Assembly (NCBI GenBank): GCA_000002445.1
Contig: CP000070.1
Span: 1,344,001 to 1,408,000, forward strand
Length of the DNA: 64,000 nt
Direction of reading: 5' to 3'
Source of the DNA: Trypanosoma brucei
Taxonomy: Eukaryota
Position 1 is the stretch's first letter. Each line of letters begins with the position of its first letter. Under the pieces are notes generated by a model. That model had not been told where the DNA came from, ran no database searches, and was given only the letters and a program-made list of their open reading frames with translations. Position numbers and translations under genes: made by a program. Positions 25,681 to 51,553 of the stretch are shown in pieces.

Positions 25681-27855
25681 ATGGAAGATGACATTATACA
25701 AGGTCGCTGTTCCGCTATCATCCAACAAATCGTGTGCGCTGGCGCACCACAGCAAGCACCCAACCAAAAGCGCCTCCTTACTGCGGCGGCAGAGGCGTTA
25801 CGACATCAAGCCATGTTAATGTATCGTCTTTGTCGAGCGAGGAAAGAAAAACTATCGGATGATCAGACAGAGGATGCGGCTTATTGTGTACTAGCCTCTG
25901 TGGCCTCACTCCAGCCTGCGCTCTGGGCGAAACTCACCGATTGGGCCCATTTATTGCGACCAAAACAGCCTGTATTACGTTTTCTTTCCCCTATTCCAAT
26001 GATTGTGAAGTTGAAGGAGGTCCTTCACTTCATTGCTCGCACCGCCCATTTACAGGTTGGTTCATCGACAACAGCACTGAATTTGGCACTATCAAAGTCG
26101 CCAGTAGAACGGCCAGCCGCGGCTTCGGTTCCTGAAGGTGCTGCGGTGGTCACTGGGCAGAGGTCCGAGCCAACAAGGGACTCCACAACAAATCATGGTT
26201 CGTACCGTAAGCGTGGACGAGAAGAGAAAAGCAAAACGCATGAAACCACATTGGGGCCCCAACTTGCCCTACAAGTAGCCTTTGCGTATTTCCGTCTCAC
26301 CGTACCTAATGCAAAGAAGCTTCAAGCTGTTATTGTCACGCGCGAATCTGAAGACGATGGCACGAAATTAGTTGCTCAATTGGAAGACACTCTGATGATG
26401 AGGGGTTGCCCCATTTCGCATCACTTATCGTCCGGAAATGGAACAACAAGTACCAGTAGCGGCGTGCACGCCCACCCAAATTTACTTAAGCTAGGGGATG
26501 ATGCGGATGACGAGGAGAACTTTGATGCTCCCTCTACGCTGTTACCTCTTGCATATCCTGCATCGTTGGGGTCATTGGTTTCCCCAAGAAATACAAATGG
26601 TATAGAAACCACTCCTATTTTCGCCTCACCGATCAGTCTACCAGCGTTGGCTGACGCCATAGATACGACCCGCTCAGCGCTATACTATAGTCGACTGCAG
26701 CGGTGTTTGCGGAACCCACTCCTGTTTTCACCATTGGAATGCGCTAGTGTTGAGGGGGGTATTCTACCAACCGGCGCAGCTACATCATTAGACTCCCGGT
26801 TTTTCCCCGTATCGTTTAGCGGTTCGCTGGATGGAAATTCCACGATGTTATTTTCATCACCCGCACACTTTCTTCATCCCGCCCGCGCTTGCCCGCAATC
26901 GCTTTTGCCTCTCCCCCCTCAGATGGTAACTGCGGAGTACCTGTGGAAACGGTTGCTTGTGGCTGGTCTGTGGCTCCTTTCTGCGAGCGGCGACCCCGCA
27001 TCAGCGATTGATAGTCGCGTGCTGCACTACTGTTGTCGTGTTGTCAAGGCAGCCTCGAGGGGCGATGTGGTGTGCCTGGTGTGTGACGATCTCGTGCGGG
27101 AAAGACCTACACTCTACATTTCTGCGCTGGCACGCCCAACTGGGGGAACCGTTGGGGGAGTGCAGGGGGAGAAGGATCATAGGTCCTGGGAGGAAATGAA
27201 ATGCATGCCAGTAGAAAAGACCCCACCGGGCGAGGCAGCACATGGTGGTGGTCCCTTAGCATGCGAAGTGCTTCGGGCCCTATCGAAAGAGTTGCATGAA
27301 AAATCCTATGAGCTCGTTGCGAGAGGTACGGTTGGACAATGTAATACTTCGGGCACCTTGGGACTTGCAGCGGGGGCGCAGAATTCAGGGGGTGGTGCTG
27401 AGACCTGTATCGGGAGAACCAATCCCACTTTGCCAACCTTGCGCGAACTCGTGGACGAGGTGAGGAGCACCTACCCTGTTGAAGCTTGTCGTGCCGCGCT
27501 CATTGGTGGTATGGACGGTGAGGCGGCAATGCGCTGCTTGTTGCTTCGGTGTGGTGATGTTAACGAAGACGACGCGTTGTCGTATCCCTGCTGTCCACAC
27601 AATACACAGGAGACTGTTGGCGCGTATGGGTGTGCAACTGCTTCGCTGAACGTCGACGGATTACTGTCCGTCGTGCCTTACGTTCCACGGCTTCGTGAGA
27701 CTGATGGGGTTCTCGAATGCGCCGGCTGTTTTCTTCTGTTCCACCAGTCGTGTGTGTGCCCCACGCAGCGTGACATTGCGGGAGGGTGCTTTCTCTGTCA
27801 CAACTGCCGTTTGAGGCGTACCGGCCAGCTCAGGTTAGACCAGCCGGTTGCATAG
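25681..27855 (+). CDS. Hypothetical protein (724 aa) with a C-terminal PHD-like zinc finger
   Basis: The C-terminal ...CAGCFLLFHQSCVCPTQRDIAGGCFLCHNC fits C-x2-C-x4-H-x2-C-x12-C-x2-C-H-x-C (the PHD core), preceded by Cys/His residues (CCPHN...C). The rest is unrecognised. Confidence 0.55.
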   Translation: MEDDIIQGRCSAIIQQIVCAGAPQQAPNQKRLLTAAAEALRHQAMLMYRLCRARKEKLSDDQTEDAAYCVLASVASLQPALWAKLTDWAHLLRPKQPVLRFLSPIPMIVKLKEVLHFIARTAHLQVGSSTTALNLALSKSPVERPAAASVPEGAAVVTGQRSEPTRDSTTNHGSYRKRGREEKSKTHETTLGPQLALQVAFAYFRLTVPNAKKLQAVIVTRESEDDGTKLVAQLEDTLMMRGCPISHHLSSGNGTTSTSSGVHAHPNLLKLGDDADDEENFDAPSTLLPLAYPASLGSLVSPRNTNGIETTPIFASPISLPALADAIDTTRSALYYSRLQRCLRNPLLFSPLECASVEGGILPTGAATSLDSRFFPVSFSGSLDGNSTMLFSSPAHFLHPARACPQSLLPLPPQMVTAEYLWKRLLVAGLWLLSASGDPASAIDSRVLHYCCRVVKAASRGDVVCLVCDDLVRERPTLYISALARPTGGTVGGVQGEKDHRSWEEMKCMPVEKTPPGEAAHGGGPLACEVLRALSKELHEKSYELVARGTVGQCNTSGTLGLAAGAQNSGGGAETCIGRTNPTLPTLRELVDEVRSTYPVEACRAALIGGMDGEAAMRCLLLRCGDVNEDDALSYPCCPHNTQETVGAYGCATASLNVDGLLSVVPYVPRLRETDGVLECAGCFLLFHQSCVCPTQRDIAGGCFLCHNCRLRRTGQLRLDQPVA

Positions 27856-28418
27856 TGCTTTTTTGGTATGTGTATATGTGTGTGCTTCTCATAGATATGA
27901 TTTGAGCGCGCGGAGTTAAGTAGTCATTATTATTGCTATTCCCACTACCTAGTGTGAAGCCACGGGGTTCTATTTTCCATACCTCCCGCCTCTTTTATGT
28001 CGGATGTTGCTATTGCCACCCGATAATATTCCTTTTTTGTTTTCCTTTGTTATTTTCTTCCTTGTCCGAACAACTGGCCGTTCCGCGCGTTTCTGGTTGT
28101 TATTCGCGTCGGTGAAACGTGATGGTCGCTTGGGGAGTGAAGCCAGCCATAACCGAAGGAGGGAATACCGTACGGAGTCGGCAGTGAAGAAGTGCCTGAG
28201 CTGCATCCACTGCCTCAAAGAAAGTGCGAAGCTTAAACTGAAAGAAAGTACGTTGGGGTGAGAAGTAAGCGACAAAAAGTTTTCCAGCAGCTAAAAAAAG
28301 TCGGCAGAACGAAAAGGAGTAAGGAGGTATTGGAAAATACAAAGAGAGCGTGAAGCCGAGGGCGAAGAAAAAACAACTAAAGAAGTCAGAACTACTAGGG
28401 GAAGGAGTGAAATCGGTA

Positions 28419-31115
28419 ATGAGCCTGGTACAGAACCAAGTTTCAGGCAACCCATATGGGAGACAGTCCTTTCTCGTAGTGTTCGACTTTGATCACACTG
28501 TTGTGGACTGCAACAGCGACGATGCGGTACCACAGTGTTTAGGTCGTGAAAAGTTCAGGGAGGAGCTTCTTCGGAGTGAAGAGGGGAAAATACAGTGGAC
28601 TAATGTGTGTGATGCCGTCGTGGCTCCCTTTACAAAGCAGCAACTCGAGGACGCCGTGATAGAGGGCATCGAAATGGACAAGGACATGCCCGATGTGTTC
28701 CGCTTTCTTGCGCAAGGACACGCAAGGGTGGTGGGTGGCGAGGGTGGTGGAAACTCCTTCCCCGATGTGGAAATTGCATTTGCGAGTGACGCGAATCATC
28801 TCTTCATTGAAGCCACCATTGACCACCATCTTTCTTTCGCACGGGAGTCCATCTCTCAGATACACAGTAACCCCTTTCATGAAGTAAATAACGGGGATGG
28901 TGAAGGCGATCGTAAGTGTCGTGTTACGTGGTATGAGCCCACGGGGCACGATTGTCGAAGCTGCGCTGACCGCGATCACCCAAACATGTGCAAAAGCCTC
29001 ATCATTGCTCGCTTACTTCACAGCACTCGACTTATTGACCCAACCGTCATTTTTGTTGGTGATGGTGAAAACGATTACTGTCCCGTGTTGAACGCACTTC
29101 GGCCAAGAGACTGCATACTGGCACGTCGTAATTTCTCCATCCACAAAGCCCTTGCAGACCCCAGCTACACCAGTGGGTGTTGCAGGGTTGGGCTGTGGGA
29201 GAATGCAAAGGAAATGCTGTCATGCTTGAAACAACTAATGTCTCCGGGGCTGCGGCTTCCAACACTCGTGCGATTCAAAGACGTAGGTCCCCACGAGTTT
29301 CGTGCGGTTACGTTATCAACTCGCATGCCGCAGGTGCTCAGTCGCACGCTTGCGGACAATGCGGCAGAGGTTAGTCCCGAAGGCCGGCGTCTGATGGACG
29401 TGCTGATCGAGGATACTAAGCAAAACGGGCCGGTGCCGTCGCTCCCTGGTCAGAGCGTGGTTTCCCCTTGGTTGCAGGCATACGCCTCGACGGTAGAGTT
29501 TGACCATGCGGCCCATCAGATTGGGGAGCACAGCAAAGCACCTGCCGTCCCCAGGTGGGGACAACTTCCTTGGTTGCAGGGAGAGATATATTTTTACAAC
29601 GTGTTTGCGCAGTATATGTTGCTGGGGAAGGCTAACCCCCCTAGCGTATCAGAGGACAAGAGTACCCTGATGCCAAACCTTGTGACACCTTATGCCACTT
29701 GCACTCCTTTAAAAGCCCAGGGGTCCGGTGCTTCCTCTGTCGCGGAGATACAAGCGAGCGGTTCCACCCCACTTCAGTTCTTTAACCCTGCCAGGCTTGC
29801 CTGGAACAGTAAACAGAACGGGGAGTTACTCAGTGTTGGAGACAGCGTGGTCCTACGCGACAAGTCGAAGAGTTATTACGAAATCATGGGTGGTGATTCA
29901 CTCGTCAAACGGCATGACCACTTCCAATCGTATCGTGATTTCTTTCTGCGAGAGAAGCGCGAGGTAATCCACAAATTCCTGCGTCCGAAAATATGTCCGA
30001 TGCTCGCTTGCATTCCATGGGAGACGAATGAGGAATTTATCACTGTACTCTTGCGCTGGATGCTATGGGGCAATGCCATTGACCTCTCTATGTTTACGTT
30101 GGAGGGGCTACAGGTGACATCACATATTGGCGAAGCGAAGGGTTCGGAGAAGTGGAGCAAAGTTGAAGAGTTGCGTGCAGCGGAGTCAACGGCAGCAAGG
30201 GGGCAGGATGAACGTATTGTGGGAAACCAACTCGAAGAGATTGCTAAGGTTGTGCGCCGAATCGTTCGAGACGAGCCCACAACAAGCGGTGGTACGACCA
30301 GAAGTCGCACCGTTAATATTGTGATGGACAACGTCGGAGTTGAATGTGTGGCTGACCTCATCTTTACTTTATGGCTTCTCAATCATCACCCATCTCTGCG
30401 TGTCGTGCTCCACGTAAAGAGCATTCCGTACTATGTGTCAGATGTAACACCACCAGATTTTGATTTTCTCCTGAACGAGTTGGAAGAGTGCTCAAAACAA
30501 GATGTTGATCTCACGAGAATTCTCATACCTTTTGTGAAGGCGCTTCGTGAGGGTTTCAGCAGCGGCAGAATTTGTATTGATGCCGATCCGTTTTGGACTC
30601 AACCTTGTGAGTACCGCGAAATGCCACCCCACGTGTGCAACTCATTTTTCTTTAGCCAGCGTGTATCGGCAAGCGAGGAGACTCAAGGAGAGTACCCATC
30701 ATCAAGTCGTGAACTGTTTCCTCGCAGGTTGTACGTGGGACATTCTGCTCTCGTCATATTTAAGGGTGATTTGAATTTCCGACGCCTTATTGGCGACCGA
30801 CACTGGGACAACCGATCATTCATGTCGACAATAAAGCCATGCGAGCGCACTTCTCCATCTGTTGCCTCAACTCTGCTTGCTGACACTCCGTGTAGTGGGG
30901 ACGAGAGCACGGCGGTGGCGCCGAGCTTTGAGAACATTGTGTCTGCCTTTTGGCCTGTGCTAACCGTTCCAGTGTGCGCGATACGCACCATAAAGAGTGA
31001 GCTCTGCGTGGGAGTACCGTTCCAGAAACAGGACAAACTTGACTCCAGTGACCCGAAGTGGAGAACGTCCGGCAGTTTTGGGGTTGTTTTAATTGCCACC
31101 GGAGAGAGTCACTGA
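28419..31115 (+). CDS. Bifunctional-looking phosphatase: N-terminal PHOSPHO1/PHOSPHO2-type HAD phosphatase domain fused to a C-terminal DUF89 (ARMT1/damage-control phosphatase-like) domain
   Basis: First ATG at 28419 (the ORF track start at 28350 is GTG). HAD motif I is near the N-terminus (FLVVFDFDHTVVDCNSDD). The Cys cluster HDCRSCADRDHPNMCK and motif IFVGDGENDYCPVLNALRPRDCILARR closely parallel human PHOSPHO2 (HSCNRCPKNLCK; IGDGGNDVCPV), recalled from memory. The C-terminal half carries DUF89 hallmarks: R(M/L)PQVL...; PWLQGEIYFYNVF (cf. PWL..ECY.YRR); and the metal-site motif VMDNVGVECVADLIFTLWLL (DNxGxE). Confidence 0.7.
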   Translation: MSLVQNQVSGNPYGRQSFLVVFDFDHTVVDCNSDDAVPQCLGREKFREELLRSEEGKIQWTNVCDAVVAPFTKQQLEDAVIEGIEMDKDMPDVFRFLAQGHARVVGGEGGGNSFPDVEIAFASDANHLFIEATIDHHLSFARESISQIHSNPFHEVNNGDGEGDRKCRVTWYEPTGHDCRSCADRDHPNMCKSLIIARLLHSTRLIDPTVIFVGDGENDYCPVLNALRPRDCILARRNFSIHKALADPSYTSGCCRVGLWENAKEMLSCLKQLMSPGLRLPTLVRFKDVGPHEFRAVTLSTRMPQVLSRTLADNAAEVSPEGRRLMDVLIEDTKQNGPVPSLPGQSVVSPWLQAYASTVEFDHAAHQIGEHSKAPAVPRWGQLPWLQGEIYFYNVFAQYMLLGKANPPSVSEDKSTLMPNLVTPYATCTPLKAQGSGASSVAEIQASGSTPLQFFNPARLAWNSKQNGELLSVGDSVVLRDKSKSYYEIMGGDSLVKRHDHFQSYRDFFLREKREVIHKFLRPKICPMLACIPWETNEEFITVLLRWMLWGNAIDLSMFTLEGLQVTSHIGEAKGSEKWSKVEELRAAESTAARGQDERIVGNQLEEIAKVVRRIVRDEPTTSGGTTRSRTVNIVMDNVGVECVADLIFTLWLLNHHPSLRVVLHVKSIPYYVSDVTPPDFDFLLNELEECSKQDVDLTRILIPFVKALREGFSSGRICIDADPFWTQPCEYREMPPHVCNSFFFSQRVSASEETQGEYPSSSRELFPRRLYVGHSALVIFKGDLNFRRLIGDRHWDNRSFMSTIKPCERTSPSVASTLLADTPCSGDESTAVAPSFENIVSAFWPVLTVPVCAIRTIKSELCVGVPFQKQDKLDSSDPKWRTSGSFGVVLIATGESH

Positions 31116-32248: not shown

Positions 32249-35200
32249 ATGACACAGCCCTCGGCAGATGAAATCTACGGTCGCCGTGCGAAAGTCAACT
32301 CTGTGATAAAGCATTCGCTGTGTTCCGGGGTCTGTGCAGTACCACAATGGATTGTTCTTTCCATGGCTGGCCTTCTCACGGGGGCACTTTTTTTTCTACC
32401 CTTTTCCACAGCCACACTTCACATTGTCTTTGTAGCCATGTCTATTGCTCTCGGTCTTCTGTTCGCGCTGTTCTCTTGGATACTGCAAAGGCACCTGTGC
32501 AAGCGGCCACCACGTGATAGCGGACTTATTAATCGGTCGGTGACTGAGGTTGAGGGTACTCAGCCCCGTCGTCTTTCAGGGGGATCAGAGGGAAGAGAGT
32601 TTAATGCCGCGAGGAGCGAGGGGGAATTAGAGGCGCACTGTTTTTTTGAAAGCGGTAGCCGTTGGTGTCTGGAAGCTCTGGCGATAGTGGAATTGCTTGT
32701 GCTGGGCGCTCTCGTGCTTCTTGCACCGCTCGTGGTCAGAATGGATGTGGAGGGAAAGTCTCTTGTTCCATCAGATGCGAGAGAGGACCCTAGTGAGCTG
32801 GCGTACCCCGTGGAAGCAGCATGGAAGGTGTTTCTCTTGCATCTATGGTTTACCTTCGCCGTTAGTATGAAGTGTGCAGCTTCATTTTCGGTGGGGTTGA
32901 TTCACTTCATTGTGCTCACGGCGTCGTTCAAAAAGCCTGGTACCATACCGGTCCTCCTCTTGGCGGCTTCCTTTATCATACCCGTTATCCTTTTTCTTGT
33001 TATTACGGCGAGGACCGCACTTCAACTGCGGAAATTACCAAAGCATACGCACCACGTAGGGTGTGACGACGTCGCAGGGAAGGAGTTGTCGCGAGGTGGC
33101 GATGAATTTAACCGATCATCTAATGCCACAACTGGCCTTTCTACAGGGGAGACAGAAACGTTGCCTTCTCAGTCTTCCTGTGGTATCTTTAGGCCACCCC
33201 CTGGACATCGCAGCGCAGAGTTTGGAGAGCCCGGTTCCAGCGGGGATTCTTCTCCGCGTCACTGCGAAGTGGTGGCTAAAGAGGAGTTGGGCCGACAAAA
33301 TCAACCCAAGTGGTCTCCATGTGGGTTACAGTGCAGTTGGAACATACCTCGAGGTCTATTGGATGACACTCGAATCCCCTTCGTGGCTCTAGATACTACC
33401 ACCGGTTGCATTGAGTGTGCAAGTGCGGGGTTTGCCGAGAATGTTGGTATGCCGGTAGCCCGATTGACTGGTCGAGAGTTTGGGGGCCTCTTAAGTGAGC
33501 TCCACGTGGAAAATGCGGCAACGGTGTTGGATGTTGTGCGCACCGTAGCAAGTTCTACCGTAAGCAAACCTCGCGCAATCCACACTGAGGGTAACGGGAA
33601 AGAAGTTTCAGGTGTACGGAGGACAGTGTTTGGAAAGTTTGGGATTAGGCCGCTGTTTTCAAAGCAGCGGCAGGTCGGGCCATTATCTGCACTGGTTGCT
33701 GATGCTGATAAGTCGTCAATGGAGATCGAAATGAACTTTCCACATATTGCGAAGGAAAGTAGTGGTCGCCGTGTCTTGGTGCGGGGATGCCGTTTCCAGG
33801 ACGAGATGGACACTCACAGCTCAAAATCATTAGCTGCTGTAGTTGATGAAGCAAAAACAAGGGGGACTGGCACGTCATCTTCTGGCATTGAGCGTGAACG
33901 CCCGATGGTATCTGAACCGAATAGTGTAACAGGTATTAAACCATCACATTTTTTTTCACTTTCACTAGATGTTTATTTATATCAACACCACGATACCTGC
34001 AACAGCAGGTATTTAGTTTTGCGGCAGCCGTCGTTGCATTATGCACTAGATTGTGTTCCACTGCCGTGTTTTCTCGTACACCCCCAAACGGGTCATGTGC
34101 TACACTGGAACGAAGCCGCAGAGCGAGAAACCGGGCTCTCAGCATACGACATGGTGGGTTGGCCGGTGTGTTTAACTTCTGTAGTGGACCCTACCGGTTC
34201 ACTGGGAGTTTTTAAAGATGCTCAGAAGAAACACTCGCTAATGCCGTTTAACTCTGCACCATCTGCTGTTCTTCATCCACCCTTGGCGAGTCCTCCTTTG
34301 TTAGTGAGTCTCCATCTTGTGGCTGGTGGTGGGGTTGAGGCGGAACAGGGACCACTGTTGGATCAAATTGATTGTCTTTGTTGGCCAGGTCGGCATCTGA
34401 GAGACGTAGGCGAATGCAGGGGTTATGCAGAAACGGATGGGTCAGTTTTGAAGGACACCAGCGCCTGTTTCTCCAGTGACCGTGACTCAGAAGAGGCTGG
34501 AGGGATGCTCCCTCCGTTGAACCCCGTTAGCGTGAATTTGGAACCTCTTGATGATTATATCTCTAGAAAAGCGCTGTTTTTCCCGCCGGCATGGATGCCG
34601 GAATCACTTACTGAAAGTAAAGCGAATACCGTGACGTGGGATGCACTTCACGTTCCTTTACTGTTTTTAATACATGGCGAAGCGCCGGGGGTGCGTGAGT
34701 GTTCGCCACTTGCGGATTGTTGTCAACCAAAGAAACAACGGAAGAACAACGGAGAGGTTGAGGGACTTTCTCAATCTTTTGTTGATATTATTGAGGAGTT
34801 CAAGGAGTCTCTGAGTTGTGCCCTCGTGAAGGAGTGTGGCATCTCCTCCCTCCCATTAAGGGATGGCAAGGAAACACTACCAAATCCCGATATAACGCAA
34901 TACTTGGGCGAACTACGGGAACTTTTCACGTGTTTGGCACAGAAGGTTGATTCCTTTAGGGAGTGTCGTGGGGTTCCTATGTCCGGCAGGGGGGATATTT
35001 GTGGGGACTTTTCGGACGCAGAGGATGGTGATACCAGTTCCGCCGTCAGAGGCGGACGCCGACCGGTTACTGCTTTTGGTTCGTCACTTGACTTGGGAAG
35101 GGGAGTCACTACCGCTCGCTACGTTGGTGATGGCAGTCGCGGAATAAAGGAGGGGAATGATATATTTGGCGAGGAGGGCGCACGAAAAGGGATCAAGGAG

Positions 35201-37285
35201 CAACAGCAAAGGACCCGTTACGACGCGCCTGCTGCTGGGGTGTTGGCGTTAGCACACAAGAATACGGCAAGTCATCCAGTTTCGTCATTTGCCGTGTCGC
35301 AAGACGCCCTCGTGACACCCCCGGCGCGTGGTGCTGCTCTCGTGGACCTCGGCAATCTGACTCGTCCTTCAGGGGAGGAGCGGTTTGTGGAGAGAGGACC
35401 TGGTTCTGGTGCAAGTAAACGTTGTGACACACACCGAATTCCACCCATGCAACCTCACAGTAAGCCGCTTGGTTATTCGAACCCTGCGGCAGAAATCCCT
35501 TCGAGGAGTGTAACTCCCACGTCGCCACTGAGGTTGGACCACTGTGAATCTCCCGGGGACCTGCCCGTGTGGGCGATGTTGAAGAGTAATGACGAAGCAA
35601 CCGTTCCATCATGTTTTATCCGAGTGCCGTTTGGAGAGGTGTTTCGCTTTGGCCGCAGCAGTAAGTGCCACGCAACGACATCTGATGTCTTTGTGAGTAG
35701 TGTCCAGTTCACAGTCAGTCGCTGGGTGCCCGCGCAGTTGTGTGCCATTCGTTCCTCTACACCACCGCATCAAGATAACGGCAGTTCCTGCGGCAGCTGC
35801 TCGCCAACGCCGTCTGGTTACGGACCATGCAACTCATCGGCCCTGGCGGACTGGAGGGTTGAGCTGTGTGACTGCAGTATTAATGGTACATACGTGAACG
35901 TCAAACGAATCGGCAAGGGGAGGACGTGTACTTTGCGAAACAACGATCTTATTACATTTCAGTTGAGAGCCCGACGGTTCTTTTTAGGGTTTAGGTTTGT
36001 GTTAACGGATGAGCGAGGCGTACCGCTGAAGGAGTGTTCCTCACCCACGTGCAGCAGCTTCCGTGCTTCCGGGATCTCTGGACGCGGTACACCACGCCTT
36101 TGGCAGCGCACCTTATCGGGGTCCGGTAGTACTTTTGCGTTAAACGCCAGTCAAACGGAATCGGCTAAGCTCAACTGTAGTGATAGTGCTTCCCAGGCAG
36201 TTCGTAGTGCTAGTGGCGTTCGGCACGGCGCCAGAACTCCCAATGCAAGGAGGATTCATACCAGCCAACGTGGTAGTGGTCGCCACCAACGCGGGACGAT
36301 AGAGTGGAAGATAGGTGAGGAAATGCTGGGTAAGGGTGGGAATGCTGAGGTATATCTTGGGATGAATCTCACGAACGGGAAACTCATTGCAGTGAAACGA
36401 GTTCCACTCCCCAAAGAGGCTGGAGGAGGCGGAAATGGAAAGGGATTGCTAAAGCGGTATATGAGCCTGCAGGAAGAAATAAAGGTCCTTTCTAAGGCTG
36501 TGCACCAAAATATTGTTCAGTACTACGGTTCCTCTCAGAATAAGGACTACTTCAACATACTTCTTGAGTTTGTGCCTGGTGGGTCGCTGCGTCATCTATT
36601 GGAAAACTTTGGCGCTCTTAGTCCGGGCGTTATATGCTCTTATCTGGCGCAAACACTCGAGGGTCTGCGCTATTTGCATGAAAATGACATTGTGCACTCT
36701 GACGTTAAAGCAGCTAACATACTTGTCACCGATAAGGGTCGAGTAAAACTTTCTGATTTCGGCACGGCCAAACATCTTCTCTGGCAGCAAGGTCAGTCGA
36801 TTGACCTGGCGAACATTTCAGGTGCCGCAGAAAGGACTGCGGATGATGCCGCGTGCTCCACGCACCATGTAGCCGGTACACTCCGTTGGATGGCTCCAGA
36901 GTTAATTAGGGCTTCTATCGGTCCGACGAAGGCGAGTGACATTTGGTCGGTGGGTTGTGCATTGATTGAGATGCTCTCTGGTGATGCACCATGGAACGAG
37001 TATGAAATCGAGAGCGAGGAGGAAATAATCAATCTTCTCAAGTACACCACGGAACCACCAGACGTACCAGAGTGCCAGGTCTTGCCTGAGTTAACACTCA
37101 TTGCAAAAAAATGTCTTGCGCTCTCCCCCCGTGATCGACCGACGTGTGAAGAGTTACTGCAACTTGTCGAGGAAGCAAGAGAGAAACTTGGGCTTCAAGA
37201 AGACGAAACTCAGTCACGGTGTGACGATTCGACATCATTGCGTCTTTCCTCTGTTTTGGGTAACGCTGCTGTGGAAGGTAATTGA
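32249..37285 (+). CDS. Membrane-associated STE11/MEKK-like serine/threonine protein kinase with an FHA domain
   Basis: First ATG at 32249. The N-terminal ~270 aa contain at least five strongly hydrophobic predicted TM helices. An FHA domain lies around aa ~1090-1210 (FRFGRSSKCHATTSDVFVSSVQFTV...CDCSINGTYVNVKRIGKGRTCTLRNNDLITF). The C-terminal kinase domain has all the catalytic motifs: LGKGGNAEVY, AVKRV, HENDIVHSDVKAANILV, SDFGTA, WMAPE and DIWSVGCALIEMLSG. Confidence 0.85.
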   Translation: MTQPSADEIYGRRAKVNSVIKHSLCSGVCAVPQWIVLSMAGLLTGALFFLPFSTATLHIVFVAMSIALGLLFALFSWILQRHLCKRPPRDSGLINRSVTEVEGTQPRRLSGGSEGREFNAARSEGELEAHCFFESGSRWCLEALAIVELLVLGALVLLAPLVVRMDVEGKSLVPSDAREDPSELAYPVEAAWKVFLLHLWFTFAVSMKCAASFSVGLIHFIVLTASFKKPGTIPVLLLAASFIIPVILFLVITARTALQLRKLPKHTHHVGCDDVAGKELSRGGDEFNRSSNATTGLSTGETETLPSQSSCGIFRPPPGHRSAEFGEPGSSGDSSPRHCEVVAKEELGRQNQPKWSPCGLQCSWNIPRGLLDDTRIPFVALDTTTGCIECASAGFAENVGMPVARLTGREFGGLLSELHVENAATVLDVVRTVASSTVSKPRAIHTEGNGKEVSGVRRTVFGKFGIRPLFSKQRQVGPLSALVADADKSSMEIEMNFPHIAKESSGRRVLVRGCRFQDEMDTHSSKSLAAVVDEAKTRGTGTSSSGIERERPMVSEPNSVTGIKPSHFFSLSLDVYLYQHHDTCNSRYLVLRQPSLHYALDCVPLPCFLVHPQTGHVLHWNEAAERETGLSAYDMVGWPVCLTSVVDPTGSLGVFKDAQKKHSLMPFNSAPSAVLHPPLASPPLLVSLHLVAGGGVEAEQGPLLDQIDCLCWPGRHLRDVGECRGYAETDGSVLKDTSACFSSDRDSEEAGGMLPPLNPVSVNLEPLDDYISRKALFFPPAWMPESLTESKANTVTWDALHVPLLFLIHGEAPGVRECSPLADCCQPKKQRKNNGEVEGLSQSFVDIIEEFKESLSCALVKECGISSLPLRDGKETLPNPDITQYLGELRELFTCLAQKVDSFRECRGVPMSGRGDICGDFSDAEDGDTSSAVRGGRRPVTAFGSSLDLGRGVTTARYVGDGSRGIKEGNDIFGEEGARKGIKEQQQRTRYDAPAAGVLALAHKNTASHPVSSFAVSQDALVTPPARGAALVDLGNLTRPSGEERFVERGPGSGASKRCDTHRIPPMQPHSKPLGYSNPAAEIPSRSVTPTSPLRLDHCESPGDLPVWAMLKSNDEATVPSCFIRVPFGEVFRFGRSSKCHATTSDVFVSSVQFTVSRWVPAQLCAIRSSTPPHQDNGSSCGSCSPTPSGYGPCNSSALADWRVELCDCSINGTYVNVKRIGKGRTCTLRNNDLITFQLRARRFFLGFRFVLTDERGVPLKECSSPTCSSFRASGISGRGTPRLWQRTLSGSGSTFALNASQTESAKLNCSDSASQAVRSASGVRHGARTPNARRIHTSQRGSGRHQRGTIEWKIGEEMLGKGGNAEVYLGMNLTNGKLIAVKRVPLPKEAGGGGNGKGLLKRYMSLQEEIKVLSKAVHQNIVQYYGSSQNKDYFNILLEFVPGGSLRHLLENFGALSPGVICSYLAQTLEGLRYLHENDIVHSDVKAANILVTDKGRVKLSDFGTAKHLLWQQGQSIDLANISGAAERTADDAACSTHHVAGTLRWMAPELIRASIGPTKASDIWSVGCALIEMLSGDAPWNEYEIESEEEIINLLKYTTEPPDVPECQVLPELTLIAKKCLALSPRDRPTCEELLQLVEEAREKLGLQEDETQSRCDDSTSLRLSSVLGNAAVEGN

Positions 37286-37591: not shown

Positions 37592-37850
37592 GTGGCTGTG
37601 GAGGACAAACTCTGGACTCTGAATTGCTTTCATTTTACTCCTGCTTTTATTTACCACCGTCGTTTGCAATTTCATCTGTATTTCTCTATTCGAAGTTTCT
37701 TAATTGCAAACAGACGTGTGTGTGCGCGTCCACATGTGCCTGTGGCTCACTTTCTTCCATTTCGTGCACATGTTTCGAACCCGGTGGCAATACATCTTAG
37801 GTTTCGTCACTGTGACACCTTTGTGCTTTTTTGTTTTGTTCTTTGTCAAA

Positions 37851-37922
37851 CTTTTTTCACCTTGTGCATACTTATGCCTTCATTTCTCCTTTTTCTCTCT
37901 TTTTCGTTTCGATCTTTTATGA
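37851..37922 (+). promoter_or_regulatory. Pyrimidine-rich tract upstream of lanosterol synthase: candidate trans-splicing signal
   Basis: cttttttcaccttgtgcatacttatgccttcatttctcctttttctctctttttcgtttcgatcttttatg, ~250 nt upstream of ATG 38167. Confidence 0.35.
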
Positions 37923-38166
37923 TTTAACCGTTAGCTGTTTTTTTTTCACGAGCAGCAGTTGCCGTATCATCCTCCGTTGTTTTGAGTGTTCAGCGTATTT
38001 ATTTTTTTTTTCTGCCGTAATAGAAGGCTTAAGGGGTAGCCAAGACGTTTCATTTTTTACTTTTTATTTTTCCTCGCTAAAAGACCAAGAGAAAAGGAAA
38101 AAGGAACAAGAGAAGGAAAACCCGTCACTCCAGGTTGTTTGTTTATCTTTTCACTCGTTACTAAAA

Positions 38167-40887
38167 ATGATGCTCTATCAGAGAAGGGGCAGGGGCGAGA
38201 TGCACAGACCCGGCATTCGAACCATTGTTGGAAGTGGTAACTCTGCACCCAGTTCACTATGCGCACCGTTCCCGTTTGATAGTGTGATCCCGCCGCCACC
38301 AAGAGGCTTGTTAGAGCGCTTTCTGCGGCGACTGACCTCAACCATCTCATGGGTGGTTTCGTTTCTTCTCGTCGTTTGCTCGATTCCCTTTCTGCTTCTC
38401 ATCCACGCGCTACTGGTCTACTGTGATGGATATAATCGTGAAGTTGTCGCGCGACATCGTAGAAAATGGCTACACCAAACGGTTCCACACGTAAGACCAG
38501 TGAGGGTGGCGCCGTCTCCCAACTTTCCCCTTGAGGGTTGGCATATGCGCTGCGAGGACGGCCGTCAGCGCTGGCACTACGGTCGGCTGCTCAATGTGGA
38601 GGAGGGGAATGAACTCGGGAAGGCCCAGGCTGAGGGATGTCCGTACACCCCTTATGGTGAAGCTGGAAATGCTAATGATGACTTTGAGGATACAGGCGCA
38701 ACAAGGACTGGCCCACGAGGTGGTCCGGACATGCGTGCAGTGAAGGAAGAGCGATGCCGCTTTGTTGAGCGATATCAATTGGGTCTCACAGGCACGGCTC
38801 ATGTAAAGCCTAGGGGATCTGTGGAAGAGGCCATGCGAGCAGGCGCTGAGTTCTTATTGCGCCTACAGCACCCATATTCCGGTCATTGGCCAAATGACTA
38901 TAGCGGGCCCCTATTTCTTACCCCCGGTGTTATCTTTGTTAGGTACATTGTGGCTCGTGGCAACATACGCAATATGTTCCCACCCCATGCAGATCACCAG
39001 CACGAGGGAGACGAGCCGTGCCTCTGTGGAGAAGCAGAGCGACTAGAACTTATACGTTACATACGAAACTATATGAACGAGGACGGTGGCTTTGGTCAAC
39101 ATACTGAGGGACACAGCACCATGCTTGGGACTGTCCTCAATTACGTTGCACTACGACTTATGGGGGTTTCAGATGATGACAGCGACGCGGCTCGCGCTCG
39201 TCAGTGGATCCGTGGTGAAGGCGGTGCTGTTTCCATTCCCACGTGGGGTAAGGTGTGGTTATGTGTCCTTGGTCTGTACGATTGGGACGGCGTTAACCCC
39301 ATTCCACCGGAGTTGTCATTGCTGCCCAACTGGATACCGTTTTCACCGAGCCGCCTGTGGTGTCACAGTCGTGTCGTTTCCATAGCCTTCTCGTACTTGT
39401 ATGGTTTGCGATGGAGGCAGCCCGATAATCTACTTCTTCAATGCCTGCGGTACGAGATTTACCTTGAGCCATATGGAAACATTAAGTGGGCTAAGCATCG
39501 AAGCAACATTTGTGCCAAGGACTGCTATACACCTCTTTCTTCCGTGTACAAAGTTTTCGCCGCCGTTATGAGTTTGTATGAGAAGCGGCCCATCAAATTT
39601 CTTCGCAGGCGGGCGCTGGAGGTAGCATGGACCCATATTGCTTACGATGATGAAAGCACACATTTCATATGCCTTGGGCCGGTGAACAAGGCGTTCGACA
39701 TGCTCATAACGTGGATACGTGAGGGAGAAACTAGTGGAAGGTACCTAAACCACCTTAATCGTCTCGATGATTATTTCTTCATGGGACCTGAAGGGCTTAG
39801 GATGAGTGGTTATAACGGTTCACAATTATGGGACACGTCGTTCGCTGTACAGGCCCTCTGCGCCTGCAACATGGAGTTGTTGTACCCTGAGGAGATGGCC
39901 CTTGCTCATCACTACGTAGATGTTGCGCAGGTGCAGGAGAATCCGGTGGCAGCGACACAGTTTTACCGCCATCGGACGAAAGGTGCGTGGAACTTCAGTA
40001 CACGCCCGCAAGCGTGGCAGGTGTCAGATTGCACAGCCGAAGGGCTTCGTGTATTGCTGCTGCTCCGTCACAAGCCATTTCCTCACCAACGCATTTATGA
40101 CGCTGTGGATCAGATTTTGTCCCTGAGGAATCGAGGCGGCGGGTGGGCTTCTTATGAGCCAACTTGCGCACCCCACTACGTAGAACTTCTCAACTGCTCG
40201 GATGTGTTCAAGGATGTCATGACTGACTACGTCTACACGGAGTGCACAAGCAGTTGTGTGCACACACTCTCACTTTTCCGAGAGCACTTTCCCGACTACC
40301 GGCGGGAGGATGTAGATAGGGCCATTCGCGATGGTGTGAAGTGCATGCTGGCGAACCAGCGGACGGATGGTTCGTATTACGGAAGTTGGGCCGTATGCTT
40401 TACATATGCTGCTTGGCTCTGCGCTAGTGCGCTTCGCATATCTGGTGAGATTTACGGCATGGAGGGAGATCCGACGTGTGTGCGCCTCGTTAACTTTTTG
40501 TTGTCACACCAGAATACGGACGGCGGTTGGGGGGAGGATGTGAGCGCGTGCGCTCGTGGTGTGTGGGTTGATAATCCAAGTGGAAGTCAAGTCGTCAACA
40601 CTGCGTGGGCGGTCATGGCTATCATGGCTGCCTCTGGCGAAGCGAGCTCAACCGAACTGCGCCGCCAGCTTCGTATTCTAAAGGCTGTAAGTGCAGGTAT
40701 TCACTTTATTGTGTCGCGCCAGCTATCAACAGGTGACTGGGCACAAGAGCGAATTAGCGGTGTGTTTAACGGTAACAACCCGATTCACTACCCAGGATAT
40801 AAAAATACCATGCCAGTGTGGGCACTGGGGGTGTACAGGCGCTGGAGTAAAACATACGGTCAACATTTTCCCCGATCGATGGATTAG
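38167..40887 (+). CDS. Lanosterol synthase (2,3-oxidosqualene cyclase, OSC/ERG7 family)
   Basis: First ATG at 38167 inside the longer ORF 37831..40887, giving 906 aa. Class II terpene cyclase signatures: GHWPNDYSGPLFLTPGVI, the catalytic-acid motif VSDCTAEGLRV, multiple QW repeats, and GSWAVCFTYAAWL. The N-terminal ~100 aa extension contains a hydrophobic segment. Confidence 0.9.
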   Translation: MMLYQRRGRGEMHRPGIRTIVGSGNSAPSSLCAPFPFDSVIPPPPRGLLERFLRRLTSTISWVVSFLLVVCSIPFLLLIHALLVYCDGYNREVVARHRRKWLHQTVPHVRPVRVAPSPNFPLEGWHMRCEDGRQRWHYGRLLNVEEGNELGKAQAEGCPYTPYGEAGNANDDFEDTGATRTGPRGGPDMRAVKEERCRFVERYQLGLTGTAHVKPRGSVEEAMRAGAEFLLRLQHPYSGHWPNDYSGPLFLTPGVIFVRYIVARGNIRNMFPPHADHQHEGDEPCLCGEAERLELIRYIRNYMNEDGGFGQHTEGHSTMLGTVLNYVALRLMGVSDDDSDAARARQWIRGEGGAVSIPTWGKVWLCVLGLYDWDGVNPIPPELSLLPNWIPFSPSRLWCHSRVVSIAFSYLYGLRWRQPDNLLLQCLRYEIYLEPYGNIKWAKHRSNICAKDCYTPLSSVYKVFAAVMSLYEKRPIKFLRRRALEVAWTHIAYDDESTHFICLGPVNKAFDMLITWIREGETSGRYLNHLNRLDDYFFMGPEGLRMSGYNGSQLWDTSFAVQALCACNMELLYPEEMALAHHYVDVAQVQENPVAATQFYRHRTKGAWNFSTRPQAWQVSDCTAEGLRVLLLLRHKPFPHQRIYDAVDQILSLRNRGGGWASYEPTCAPHYVELLNCSDVFKDVMTDYVYTECTSSCVHTLSLFREHFPDYRREDVDRAIRDGVKCMLANQRTDGSYYGSWAVCFTYAAWLCASALRISGEIYGMEGDPTCVRLVNFLLSHQNTDGGWGEDVSACARGVWVDNPSGSQVVNTAWAVMAIMAASGEASSTELRRQLRILKAVSAGIHFIVSRQLSTGDWAQERISGVFNGNNPIHYPGYKNTMPVWALGVYRRWSKTYGQHFPRSMD

Positions 40888-42328
40888 CAAGGGGAACGGA
40901 TGCTTGTGAGGATTGGAAGATTACGATACCTTCACAGTCACCACCAATGTAAATGTCACGGGAGAAAGTAACCGTCACGACTTTACTTGCGTGTGTCGGC
41001 GCCTACTTCCGACTTTTACACGGTGCGACGAGGACAACCTGCGTACTGTTGTCAGAAGTCCATTTGCTGCATCAATCCCCTGTCAAATGTTGAAGTGATA
41101 CATGAGGGTGAGGCATCACATGGAAGCAATGTGAAACAAAGTGCAAGTGTTTAAGTAGGTGAAGGAGAATGTGTAGTAGCTTGCCAACTTCTTGTCATGC
41201 AGTTAATCATACATATAAAGTGCCAAAAAGCAGTTGGTTAAGTGGACCTAATTTTCCCTATGATTTTAACTGTCCCCCTTCCATACATTTTTTCTGTTTT
41301 AGTGATGTCACTCGATGGCACCCCGCTTCTGTTATTTGTTCTTCTTGTCTTACGTGTCTCGCGTGTGTGTGCACGTTGTGTGATAACTTTCCTTTCGCCC
41401 ACCCTTCATTTGCCATTAACCCTTCCGGAGTGAAGGCACAATGTTAAGGCGAGTGGAATGCTGGAAAGCAGAAAAAAAAACAGAGAAAAGAAGGAAGAGG
41501 AGAGGGTGCGGAAAGGGAGTGTACGTGTACGTAGGAAACCGATGCGTGGATGTCCGCGTGGCACGGAAGTAGGAGCATCTTTCTTTTTTTTTTGCTACCT
41601 GGTTGCTTGTCTGCGTGTGAAAGTGAAATAGTTTGAAATGTTTCAGTGTAAGTACCCTGCTGACTAAATGTTTGCCATGGATGCAGTGAATCATTGTTAT
41701 TATTATTGTTGCTGCTGCTGCTGACATTGATATTGGTAATGGTATTGTTATATATATATGTATATGTATATATGTATGTATGTATATATATATATTGCAG
41801 CTATGGCAACTCTTTGCGTCCTTATTTTCTTCTTTTTGTCTGTTTGACATTAACATTTTTTGTAACAATCGTAACAGGCTAGGGGTCGCGGTGCCGGCCC
41901 TTGAGATACTTGAAAGTAGTCGTAATAAAGGAGTGGAAAAGGAATAGGAGTAACATAGCGGAAAGGAAGCGGCGTAGGATAGCTGTTTTCATTGCCATTG
42001 GCGCAAGGGAATTCAGCCCTACCTTCTACGCCTTCCTTCCTATTGTTTGACGGAATAGTTTTTTGCGTATAAGCATTGTGCGAGGTAGGGAAACAAGTGT
42101 AAGCTACTTAAGGAAGGGTATAAATATAATAGGAAGGTACCCCCGTTACCTGAAACGAAGTGGGGGAGTGTCTGTACAGGAGTGTTTCTTCGTTCATATA
42201 TATTTTCATATTTATATAGGGAGGGACGAGGAAGTGCGGCGGAGGAAGGCGACACCAACGACAATAGCAAACCGCGAACAGACGCCTCAGTATACACCTT
42301 TGTTGGTTTATTTTCCTTCAGCGTTCGC

Positions 42329-50446: not shown

Positions 50447-51553
50447 GTTTTTCTTCAAACGTGCAAAAAAAAAATGTGACAGCGCGCCCTCTTCCACTCA
50501 CAGGAGGCGGGAATTACGTTCCATTTTGTATTCTCCGTTCGGCGATGCTTCGGTCGTATTTGTTGAGTCCTGCATAGAGTGGGGAAGGGAGATGCAACAG
50601 GGAACAAAGGGCATGTGTGAAACCGTGTTTGTCTTACCCCTCGCTTCCGCTAATTCAAGTGTGCTAGTTGCCCGAAAGATTGGCAGAAACTTTCCAGCCA
50701 TTGTTAGCATTTGATAACCTTTCCGTCAGAAAAAAAAAAGACATTTCTTTTTGACGGTTGGTTGCCGAAGAAAAGTGTGAACCAAGTCTGGCCACGTTGT
50801 GGGACGGGGTTCTGCCGCATTCTTCTTTACGTACATCAGCAGGTTATATATGCCTTGGGCCCGAATGGAAAGCATACCAACAACCCAAATACCTTCCATT
50901 TGTGGATGTGCAGGTGCGTGGAAGGGAGCGAGGGTGTAATAACATTGTGGAAGGTTTGTTCGAGCACTCGTTCTTCACCTCTGCCAGTTTTTCCTTCCAC
51001 AGTTACATACCATTTGCTTCTTTCTCCTCCTTCCTCATTATTACTGTCACTGTCACTGCTACCACGGTAACGTTATTTACCTTGTTTTCAATTGCTTGTT
51101 TAAGCACTCACGCACGGAAGAAGGCCCAAACCGTCAGTGTGCGTGTGTGGTCTAAGTTCTACAAAAGTGCCGGTAGTGAGGGGTAGGTAAAACATATTTT
51201 TTTTTTTTTGGGGGGGGGGAGTAGCAGCCGAGCACCGGGTGTGTTGGAAGTGTAGGGACAGTGTGGCTAGTAGGCAAGTAGTAAGTTAGACATAGAATAA
51301 AAAGGGGTAAAACAAAGTGGAACACTAGCGCCATACACATTGTGTTGGGGAAAGTAGGACAAGGCTGGAGAAGCGAGACGCGAGTGGTGGGAACTATTAG
51401 GTTAGTGAGTGACTTTAGGAGTGTCTTCCGGGGAGAGAATACCTGGAAGCGTAGGGTCGATATAAAGAAGTTTAAATCCCCTTAGTTCGGCTAGTGAAGA
51501 GTAGGGAAAGTAATTTGAGGAGTCAGGGAAGCTTAGTGGAGGGGACTTGCTGC

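What the first reader, a model, noticed from the sequence alone, without database searches (positions are those of the whole stretch)
32249..37285. Polytopic-membrane + FHA + STE11-like kinase architecture
One ORF combines an N-terminal cluster of at least five hydrophobic helices, a central canonical FHA phosphothreonine-binding domain (FRFGRS...NGTYVN...LRNNDLITF), and a C-terminal STE11/MEKK-like catalytic domain with every catalytic motif intact. The long intervening regions are disordered. A MAP3K that is itself membrane-integral and carries an FHA reader domain is an unusual signalling architecture. It could couple membrane localisation to phospho-dependent docking.
Basis: partly seen in the sequence, partly recalled or inferred. 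Interest (0 to 1): 0.55.

Follow-up and report, generated by a model that had tools for sequence, protein, structure and literature searches.

The report
Trypanosoma brucei forkhead kinase FHK gene

Summary
The ORF at 32249-37285 (+) is real and encodes 1678 aa. It has 5-6 N-terminal hydrophobic helices, all within aa 33-256. It has an FHA domain that scores above the Pfam threshold (aa ~1106-1255). Its C-terminal kinase domain matches MAP3K2 and MAP3K5 best.

Both gene-specific RNAi primers published for T. brucei Tb927.7.5220 ("Forkhead Kinase", STE/STE11) match the ORF exactly. Jensen et al. 2021 (PMC8519429) already described this protein, FHK. They reported multiple TMDs, an FHA domain, a PAS-like region, carbonate-resistant membrane integration, flagellar-pocket localisation by immuno-EM and kinase activity.

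It holds two tandem PAS domains, supported by family-wide Pfam hits, PDB profile hits and an AlphaFold model that matches tandem-PAS proteins.

The kinase is also a family-wide non-RD kinase (HSD instead of HRD).

The membrane module is conserved across about 27 kinetoplastid-like cluster representatives and matches no Pfam or PDB family.

Verdict: a correct observation of a known gene. Interest is low. The tandem PAS domains and the conserved membrane module are small additions.

The parts
32249..37285 (+). Complete coding sequence of FHK (Tb927.7.5220), 1678 aa plus the stop codon
   Evidence: Translation. Jones 2014 RNAi primers for Tb927.7.5220 match exactly. The 1678 aa length equals the largest TMD kinase in Jensen 2021.
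32345..33016 (+). Polytopic membrane module, aa 33-256. Helices lie at about 33-53, 57-79, 141-164, 189-227 (probably two helices) and 233-256. Conserved residues include F49, P51, H58 and G153.
   Evidence: Hydropathy. Family-averaged hydropathy. 12-sequence alignment A5 with invariant P51 and G153. No Pfam or PDB match. Integral membrane behaviour is shown experimentally in PMC8519429.
33362..34033 (+). PAS-A, aa ~372-595, interrupted by poorly conserved, low-confidence insertions (about aa 445-505 and 515-565)
   Evidence: jackhmmer block A and the first part of block B; the two blocks are contiguous in short family members. PDB profile hits to PAS domains at profile positions 9-64. The AF2 model shows a beta-beta-alpha4-beta3 order with pLDDT of about 75-96 in the core. 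Foldseek top hits are tandem-PAS proteins.
34037..34684 (+). PAS-B, aa ~597 to ~715, possibly extending to 812 if 'VPLLFLIHGE' is the last strand. The C-terminal boundary is uncertain.
   Evidence: Sub-threshold Pfam PAS/PAS_8 hits at aa 597-637, and at the homologous position in P0002. 16/16 family members hit PF00989, best E = 3.5e-11. Phytochrome B PAS E = 1e-6 and PYP hits. Bacterial multi-PAS proteins hit aa ~580-645. In the AF2 model the N-terminal half has pLDDT 78-88 and the C-terminal half is below 50. Family alignment.
34760..34963 (+). Two weakly conserved amphipathic segments after PAS-B (aa ~841-860 and ~882-903). These may be helices that act as a linker or dimerisation element.
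   Evidence: Family alignment only. The helical nature is inferred. A single-sequence jackhmmer search of aa 740-1105 found no significant match, so support is weak.
35564..36013 (+). FHA domain, aa ~1106-1255, with a ~45-aa insertion (aa ~1160-1203)
   Evidence: PF00498 at 28.6 bits, above the gathering score of 20.7. The full-length FHA model is matched in ortholog P0002. Alignments to the TIFA and Chk2 FHA domains. G1135, R1136, S1150 and N1212-G-T are invariant in 29/29 family sequences. The position of the usual His is Gln in 29/29.
36299..37168 (+). STE11/MAP3K-like protein kinase domain, aa ~1351-1640. It is non-RD (H1483-S-D1485) and has a long activation segment.
   Evidence: Pkinase E = 1e-55. 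Best PDB matches are MAP3K2 and MAP3K5. Motifs. Family conservation: catalytic residues are invariant and the HRD Arg position is S, G or A, never R. MBP phosphorylation is shown in PMC8519429.
35750..36274 (+). Fragment amplified by the published RNAi primers TLO235 and TLO236 for Tb927.7.5220
   Evidence: Exact 20-nt matches at 35750-35769 (+) and 36255-36274 (-). No match occurred in any of 100 shuffles. Primer sequences come from the Jones 2014 supplement.

Best explanation
The ORF is the Trypanosoma brucei gene for forkhead kinase FHK (Tb927.7.5220), in this or a near-identical strain. FHK belongs to a kinetoplastid-wide family of membrane-integral STE11-like Ser/Thr kinases.

Shown here or in the literature:
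- An N-terminal module of 5-6 transmembrane helices inserts the protein into the flagellar-pocket membrane.
- Everything after the last helix faces the cytoplasm.
- That cytoplasmic part holds two tandem PAS domains, a poorly conserved linker, an FHA domain with all phosphothreonine-contacting residues conserved, and an active non-RD kinase domain.

Inferred:
- The most coherent topology is six helices with both termini in the cytoplasm. The exposed loops are too short to form a ligand-binding ectodomain.
- Signal input most likely comes from the conserved membrane module itself (lipid or biophysical state, or contact with a partner membrane protein), from ligand or cofactor binding to the cytoplasmic PAS domains, or from PAS-mediated dimerisation.
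- Because the kinase lacks the HRD arginine, it probably does not depend on activation-loop phosphorylation. It would instead be controlled by the conformation or oligomeric state imposed by the PAS and FHA region.
- The FHA domain would dock phosphothreonine sites, either on another FHK molecule (Chk2-like trans-activation) or on primed substrates or scaffolds at the pocket.
- The output would be phosphorylation of downstream targets, possibly a STE7-type MAP2K.
For: Identity: exact matches of both Tb927.7.5220 RNAi primers. The 1678 aa length and the TMD + FHA + PAS-like architecture agree with Jensen 2021. Synteny: a lanosterol synthase gene lies immediately downstream. LmjF06.0650 is lanosterol synthase, and LmjF06.0640 is the listed STE11 ortholog with 5 TMDs of the only chromosome-7 TMD kinase.

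Architecture.

Tandem PAS.

Family-wide conservation of all modules.

Experiments from PMC8519429: the protein is carbonate-insoluble, immuno-EM gold lies on the cytoplasmic face of the flagellar pocket, and the immunoprecipitate phosphorylates MBP.

Topology: basic residues flank the N-terminus, the TM2-TM3 loop and the sequence after the last helix. The TM3-TM4 loop is acidic (sequence).
Against: No ligand, cofactor, substrate or phosphopeptide partner is known.

RNAi indicates FHK is dispensable in cultured bloodstream forms (Jones 2014 ratios ~1.0; Jensen 2021). Function in T. brucei is therefore undefined.

Localisation used ectopic, probably over-expressed, tagged protein.

The helix count (5 or 6) is not resolved by hydropathy alone.

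The C-terminal half of PAS-B is modelled at low confidence.

No MAP2K phosphorylation has been shown.
Confidence: 0.9

Rival explanations
1. This is an anchor-only model. The membrane helices merely tether a constitutively active kinase at the flagellar pocket. The PAS domains serve only as dimerisation or structural spacers. Specificity comes entirely from FHA docking to primed phosphoproteins, with no sensing function.
For: The extracytoplasmic loops are very short. Non-RD kinases are often constitutively competent (family-wide HSD/HGD). No cofactor-binding signature was identified. The immunoprecipitated protein was active without any stimulus.
Against: A simple anchor would not need six helices with invariant Pro and Gly and conserved His residues kept across very divergent family members. 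Two PAS domains are retained in every full-length member despite huge variation in the linkers.
Confidence: 0.3
2. This is a canonical MAP3K model. FHK is the top tier of a three-kinase MAPK cascade, and its essential output is phosphorylation of a trypanosome STE7-like MAP2K.
For: The kinase domain is closest to MAP3K2 and MAP3K5. It is classified STE/STE11 in published kinomes. The probable L. mexicana ortholog is called 'a MAP3K' and shares loss-of-fitness phenotypes with MPK1 and MPK2.
Against: No substrate is known. STE11-like kinases are greatly expanded in trypanosomatids (14-21 genes) relative to the 2 BLAST-assigned STE7 genes per species, or five ortholog sets by phylogeny. Many of them therefore probably have non-cascade roles. 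The HRD arginine typical of the STE11 consensus (own knowledge) is absent here.
Confidence: 0.3
3. The ORF is a chance open frame, a pseudogene or a mis-joined gene model rather than a single functional protein.
For: None found. Protein production is reported to be low.
Against: The ORF is 5 kb long in ~50% GC DNA. All modules are colinear in about 20 full-length relatives. The tagged full-length protein is expressed and active.
Confidence: 0.01

Closest known systems
T. brucei FHK / Tb927.7.5220 (Jones et al. 2014, PMC3894213; Jensen et al. 2021, PMC8519429)
   Same: It is the same gene. Primer matches are exact, the length is 1678 aa, and the multi-TMD, FHA, PAS-like region and C-terminal STE11 kinase all agree.
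   Different: There is no difference at the gene level. Four points resolved here are absent from the passages of that paper I read. The PAS-like region is two tandem PAS domains with insertions. The kinase is non-RD throughout the family. The FHA His position is always Gln. The membrane module has its own conserved motifs and no detectable relatives.
L. major LmjF06.0640 / L. mexicana LmxM.06.0640 (Parsons 2005; Baker et al. 2021, PMC7902614)
   Same: It is listed as the ortholog of the chromosome-7 multi-TMD STE11 kinase of T. brucei. It lies next to lanosterol synthase, as FHK does in the window.
   Different: The Leishmania-like relatives found here are far longer (2400-3400 aa). The L. 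mexicana null mutant loses fitness in both mouse and sand fly, whereas T. brucei FHK RNAi shows no culture phenotype. One review calls LmxM.06.0640 'unique to Leishmania', which conflicts with Parsons' orthology table.
T. brucei RDK1 (Tb927.11.14070) and MEKK1 (Tb927.2.2720)
   Same: Both are multi-pass membrane kinases with a C-terminal catalytic domain (RDK1 is STE11-like; MEKK1 is classed as 'Unique'). Both are experimentally membrane-associated. MEKK1 is also found at the flagellar pocket.
   Different: The sensor modules differ. RDK1 has a bacterial-type sensor/receptor region and a cyclase-like region and sits in the ER. Jensen's Fig 1 legend marks an FHA domain ('F') without naming its carrier; the text and gene name attribute FHA to FHK only, and none is described for RDK1 or MEKK1.
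Chk2 / Rad53 / Dun1 / Mek1 (FHA-containing checkpoint kinases)
   Same: An FHA domain lies in the same polypeptide as a Ser/Thr kinase. The FHA C-terminal half aligns best to Chk2. Chk2-like FHA-mediated trans-dimerisation is a plausible working model.
   Different: Those kinases are soluble CAMK-group kinases with the FHA at the N-terminus and no TM or PAS domains. Here the kinase is STE11-like and membrane-integral.
Bacterial membrane PAS sensor kinases and PAS signalling proteins (FixL, DosP, PpsR, NifL), and membrane-sensing LytS/DesK
   Same: The order is a polytopic membrane module, then cytoplasmic tandem PAS, then a kinase output. The model's top structural matches are FixL, DosP and PpsR tandem PAS. 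Jensen 2021 also suggests LytS/DesK-like membrane sensing.
   Different: The output here is a eukaryotic Ser/Thr kinase, not a histidine kinase. An FHA domain is interposed. The membrane module matches no Pfam family, so no LytS-type (5TMR-LYT) or MASE-type model hit it.

Membership tests
T. brucei FHK (Tb927.7.5220) | The gene sequence contains the published gene-specific RNAi primer pair | tested here: met
   TLO235 and TLO236 match exactly at 35750-35769 (+) and 36255-36274 (-).
T. brucei FHK (Tb927.7.5220) | 1678-aa protein with multiple TMDs, an FHA domain, a PAS-like region and a C-terminal kinase | tested here: met
   compared with the Jensen 2021 description.
T. brucei FHK (Tb927.7.5220) | Residue-by-residue identity to the reference TriTrypDB entry | not testable with these tools
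   No trypanosome reference proteome is available. The closest database protein, P0001, is 99% identical and unnamed.
STE11 / MAP3K kinase family | The catalytic domain is most similar to STE11-family kinases | tested here: met
   The best PDB matches are MAP3K2 (3e-39) and MAP3K5 (2e-34), ahead of STE20 kinases. The published class is STE/STE11.
STE11 / MAP3K kinase family | Full set of catalytic residues (VAIK Lys, alphaC Glu, catalytic Asp, Asn, DFG) | tested here: met
   K1383, E1410, D1485, N1490 and D1503 are invariant in the family.
STE11 / MAP3K kinase family | HRD arginine (RD kinase), as in the typical HRDIKGANIL motif of STE11 kinases (own knowledge) | tested here: not met
   The window has HSD. 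The family has S (19), G (8) or A (1) at this position and never R.
STE11 / MAP3K kinase family | Phosphorylates and activates a MAP2K | not testable with these tools
   Only MBP phosphorylation has been reported.
FHA domain (PF00498) | Profile score above the Pfam gathering threshold | tested here: met
   28.6 bits against 20.7 in the window. Ortholog P0002 scores 31.7 bits over model positions 3-66.
FHA domain (PF00498) | Conserved phosphothreonine-contacting residues (Gly-Arg, Ser, Asn-Gly) | tested here: met
   G1135, R1136, S1150 and N1212-G1213-T1214 are invariant in 29/29 sequences.
FHA domain (PF00498) | Conserved His of the SxxH motif | tested here: not met
   Gln1153 occupies this position in 29/29 sequences. 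The aligned stretch of the TIFA FHA domain also reads SRVQ.
FHA domain (PF00498) | Binds phosphothreonine peptides | not testable with these tools
   This needs biochemistry.
PAS fold (PF00989 and clan) | Significant profile match | tested here: met
   The window alone is sub-threshold (17.2 bits against 22.6). All 16 aligned family members hit PF00989, best E = 3.5e-11, and PAS_4 reaches 1.9e-11. The family profile hits phytochrome B PAS at 1e-6, and also PYP and LuxR-PAS, with both halves of the region.
PAS fold (PF00989 and clan) | Five-stranded antiparallel sheet flanked by helices in a 3D model | tested here: met
   For PAS-A the AF2 model has pLDDT of about 75-96 in the core elements, in the order beta-beta-alpha x4-beta x3. 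Foldseek top hits are tandem-PAS proteins, with probability ~1.0 for the best. For PAS-B only the N-terminal half is confident, so that domain is inconclusive at its C-terminus.
PAS fold (PF00989 and clan) | Binds a cofactor or ligand | not testable with these tools
   No diagnostic heme, FMN or FAD motif was looked for or found.
Classical receptor kinase (extracellular ligand-binding domain + TM + kinase) | A sizeable extracytoplasmic domain | tested here: not met
   In the 6-TM, N-in model the exposed loops are about 3, 26 and 5 aa long. All folded domains follow the last helix on the cytoplasmic side, where the immuno-EM gold also lies.
Known membrane sensor modules in Pfam (for example 5TMR-LYT or MASE-type, own knowledge) | Profile match of the TM module to a described family | tested here: not met
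   No Pfam family reached E < 0.09 for any of the 12 members, and no family was hit by more than one member. No PDB match reached E < 4.9.

The most novel reading that the evidence does not exclude
The conserved six-helix module, with its invariant Pro and Gly and conserved intramembrane His residues, together with the two cytoplasmic PAS domains, forms a true signal-input unit. FHK would then be a eukaryotic counterpart of bacterial membrane PAS sensor kinases. It would sense a lipid, redox, heme or small-molecule cue at the flagellar pocket and relay it through FHA-dependent assembly to a non-RD MAP3K-like kinase. Its main role would be in life-cycle transitions in the vector, as the Leishmania ortholog's phenotype suggests.
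Probability: 0.25. Interest if true: 0.55.

Novelty: already known. Interest (0 to 1): 0.15.

Why it matters
Trypanosomatids have few predicted membrane kinases and lack receptor tyrosine kinases and heterotrimeric G-protein signalling. A flagellar-pocket, multi-pass, PAS-FHA-MAP3K-like kinase is therefore a plausible environmental or membrane-state sensor in a major pathogen. Its probable Leishmania ortholog is needed in both host and vector.

That case has already been made in print for this exact gene, so the finding adds no new object. The small additions here give concrete mutational targets for anyone working on FHK:
- Two PAS domains rather than one PAS-like region.
- A family-wide non-RD kinase and Gln-type FHA.
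- An orphan conserved membrane module with invariant residues.

Tried and rejected
1. Whole-protein and N-terminal searches of the 5.8-billion-protein collection returned only two relatives and no names. The exhaustive representative search was needed to find the family.

2. AlphaFold with a 3-sequence alignment gave an unusable model (pLDDT 30). A 16-sequence alignment fixed PAS-A but not the end of PAS-B. That model stopped at aa 760, so it may lack a last PAS-B strand at 803-812.

3. A jackhmmer search of aa 740-1105 found nothing significant. The post-PAS 'helical' segments rest only on a global alignment.

4. The membrane module had no credible Pfam or PDB hit.

5. Literature searches by the Leishmania gene number used as a bare string returned noise. 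A search for 'lanosterol synthase' plus Tb927.7 returned nothing. A combined search for the PAS and FHA domains, trypanosomes and STE11 found no dedicated paper. The decisive lead was the kinome RNAi supplement.

6. I considered RDK1 as the identity and rejected it, because it is a different chromosome-11 gene with 3 TMDs and a different sensor region.

7. No tRNA or Rfam family was found in the window.
Full report
**The observation.** The frame is open from 32240 to the stop at 37285. The first ATG is at 32249 and gives a 1678-aa protein. All large ORFs in the window lie on the + strand up to about 62 kb, as expected for a trypanosomatid polycistronic unit.

A Kyte-Doolittle scan finds hydrophobic peaks of at least 1.6 only within aa 24-261. 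The maximum elsewhere is 1.29.

Pfam reports Pkinase at aa 1358-1638 (E = 1e-55). It reports FHA at aa 1202-1237 with 28.6 bits, above the gathering score of 20.7. It also gives sub-threshold PAS_8 and PAS hits at aa 597-637.

The best solved-structure matches of the kinase are MAP3K2 (3e-39) and MAP3K5/ASK1 (2e-34), ahead of STE20-type kinases.

So the ORF, the hydrophobic cluster, the FHA domain and the STE11-like kinase are all real.

**Corrections to the observation.**

The FHA domain is not central. It spans about aa 1106-1255, directly before the kinase, and is split by a ~45-aa insertion. Its N-terminal half aligns to the TIFA FHA domain and its C-terminal half to the Chk2 FHA domain. 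The diverged ortholog P0002 matches the whole Pfam model.

The catalytic residues are present, but the HRD motif reads HSD and the third Gly-loop glycine is Ala.

The claim that the intervening regions are disordered is only partly true, as shown below.

**Relatives.** Word-indexed searches found only a 99%-identical unnamed protein (P0001) and one diverged ortholog (P0002, 2107 aa). P0002 has the same upstream ARMT1-like/phosphatase gene as the window.

The exhaustive representative search with aa 130-1329 found 33 hits, covering three groups:
- about 27 family representatives of 1000-3400 aa, plus fragments;
- the two proteins already found, P0001 and P0002;
- three bacterial multi-PAS proteins that align to aa ~580-645 (E = 7e-7 to 2e-4).

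Every full-length family member has 3-7 hydropathy peaks (most of them 4-6), mostly N-terminal, followed by the FHA motifs (GRSxKC ... NGT[YF]VN) and the kinase.

**Tandem PAS domains.** An iterative search with aa 360-740 shows two blocks conserved in the family. These are about aa 370-445 and 540-650. In short members the two blocks are contiguous, so the window protein carries insertions.

- In a 16-sequence alignment (A4), all 16 members individually hit PF00989 PAS (best E = 3.5e-11). Nine hit PAS_4 (best E = 1.9e-11).
- The family profile hits PAS domains of phytochrome B (1e-6), phytochrome A, PYP, a LuxR-type regulator and others. These hits involve both halves of the region.
- An AlphaFold model from a 3-sequence alignment was useless (pLDDT 30).
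- With A4 the model reached block-mean pLDDT of 75-96 across the first domain's N-terminal strands and helices, and 77-91 in its last strands. That domain runs beta-beta, four helices, then three strands. The start of the second domain reached 78-88.
- Foldseek's top PDB matches are all tandem-PAS proteins: DosP, PpsR, FixL, NPAS1-ARNT, AHR-ARNT, CLOCK-BMAL1, PERIOD and NifL. Probabilities are about 1.0 for the best hits. TM-scores are low, as expected given the unstructured insertions.

I therefore assign PAS-A to about aa 372-595. I assign PAS-B from aa ~597 to at least ~715. A family alignment suggests the last PAS-B strand might instead be 'VPLLFLIHGE' at aa 803-812, followed by two weakly conserved amphipathic segments. 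This boundary is unresolved.

**Membrane module.** Family-averaged hydropathy shows conserved segments at about aa 34-50, 52-75, 145-162, 189-224 and 234-253. The 189-224 segment is long enough for two helices.

The alignment has invariant P51 and G153 and near-invariant F49 and H58. H198 and H219 are mostly conserved inside the helices. No Pfam or PDB family matches the module.

Basic residues flank the N-terminus, the TM2-TM3 loop and the segment after the last helix. The TM3-TM4 loop is acidic. The simplest topology is six helices with both ends in the cytoplasm. This is an inference.

**Family-wide conservation of functional residues.**
- FHA: G1135, R1136, S1150 and N1212-G-T are invariant in 29/29 sequences.
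- FHA: the usual His position is Gln in all 29. The aligned stretch of TIFA also reads SRVQ.
- Kinase: the catalytic residues are invariant.
- Kinase: the HRD Arg position is S, G or A and never R, so this is a non-RD kinase family.
- Kinase: the APE Glu varies in the longer members.

**Identity.** Parsons et al. 2005 list ten T. brucei kinases with predicted TMDs. One is on chromosome 7: Tb07.27E10.480, classed STE/STE11, with '4 + SA' TMDs. Its listed orthologs are LmjF06.0640 (5 TMDs) and Tc00.1047053508175.80.

In the window the kinase lies immediately upstream of a lanosterol synthase gene. LmjF06.0650 is lanosterol synthase.

The supplement of Jones et al. 2014 lists 'STE/STE11, Forkhead Kinase, Tb927.7.5220' together with its RNAi primers. 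Both 20-mers match the ORF exactly, at 35750-35769 (+) and 36255-36274 (-). No match occurred in shuffled controls. The ORF is therefore FHK.

**What is already published.** Jensen, Vaney, Flaspohler, Coppens and Parsons (PLoS One 2021, PMC8519429) describe FHK as follows:
- It is one of ten TMD kinases, whose lengths range up to 1678 aa.
- It is named for its FHA domain.
- It has a PAS-like region detected by HHpred at over 90% probability.
- It is an integral membrane protein (carbonate-insoluble).
[quoted passage not shown] Immuno-EM gold lies on the cytoplasmic side.
- It is active on MBP.
- Its protein production is low.
- It is dispensable in bloodstream forms by RNAi.

Those authors already note that multi-pass topology is extremely uncommon for eukaryotic kinases. 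They also suggest LytS/DesK-like sensing of the membrane. The probable L. mexicana ortholog, LmxM.06.0640 ('a MAP3K'), is needed in both mouse and sand fly. One review calls it unique to Leishmania, which conflicts with Parsons' table.

**Mechanism.**

Shown: membrane integration, cytoplasmic orientation of the C-terminus, kinase activity, and the domain content.

Inferred:
- The membrane module and/or the PAS domains provide input or drive dimerisation.
- The non-RD kinase is regulated by conformation rather than by activation-loop phosphorylation.
- The FHA domain docks phosphothreonine in trans, as in Chk2, or on primed substrates.
- The output may or may not be a MAP2K.

Rivals are an anchor-only model and a canonical MAP3K cascade model. 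Neither is excluded.

**Verdict.** However, it is a named, published and experimentally localised protein. The additions here are tandem PAS domains instead of one PAS-like region, the non-RD kinase and Gln-type FHA signatures, and the orphan conserved membrane module. These are incremental. Novelty is 'already known' and interest is low.

Noticed in passing
window 32345-33016 (FHK aa 33-256): The membrane module keeps polar and special residues inside or beside its helices across very divergent relatives. P51 and G153 are invariant, F49 and H58 are near-invariant, and H198 and H219 are mostly conserved. A Trp is conserved in the last helix, but it is Ser241 in this protein. The His residues could indicate metal, heme or proton sensing. 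The module has no Pfam or PDB relatives.
   Followed up: partly
window 28350-31115 (+): The upstream neighbour is a 921-aa fusion of a 'Put_Phosphatase' domain (PF06888) and an ARMT1-like damage-control phosphatase domain (PF01937). The same gene also sits upstream of the diverged FHK ortholog in locus L002.
   Followed up: partly
window 37831-40887 (+): The downstream neighbour is a lanosterol synthase / oxidosqualene cyclase (SQHop_cyclase N and C domains). It was used here as a synteny marker with LmjF06.0650.
   Followed up: partly
window 63162-63655: A 54-bp tandem repeat with 9.1 copies and 95% matches. It leaves ORFs open in several frames on both strands. One of them is a Gly-rich 18-aa repeat protein on the - strand (63044-63781). 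GC skew changes sign in the last 2 kb, which may mark the end of the transcription unit or a strand switch.
   Followed up: partly
window 12147-16544, 21358-24912, 51494-57760 (+): Three very long ORFs (1465, 1184 and 2088 aa) have no Pfam match at E <= 1e-3 or 1e-4. The same is true of several 470-760-aa ORFs: 10195-11607, 25681-27855, 42182-43801, 45540-47732 and 58736-61030.
   Followed up: no
window 15-2672, 6940-8115, 17423-18286 (+): Other recognisable genes are a condensin subunit 2 (Cnd2), a SpoU-type RNA 2'-O-methyltransferase and a dimeric all-alpha dUTPase (dUTPase_2).
   Followed up: no
literature (LmxM.06.0640): A 2022 review calls LmxM.06.0640 'unique to Leishmania'. Parsons 2005 lists T. 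brucei and T. cruzi orthologs, and the window shows the conserved position next to lanosterol synthase. This looks like an orthology-annotation inconsistency, probably caused by the extreme length and linker divergence of the Leishmania proteins.
   Followed up: partly
window 32249-37285 compared with P0001 (locus L001): The only near-identical database protein differs at 15 of 1678 residues. Most differences lie in linkers and loops: five in the TM2-TM3 loop and one in the kinase domain (T1616A). This suggests a different T. brucei strain or subspecies in Logan sample ERR7929164.
   Followed up: no
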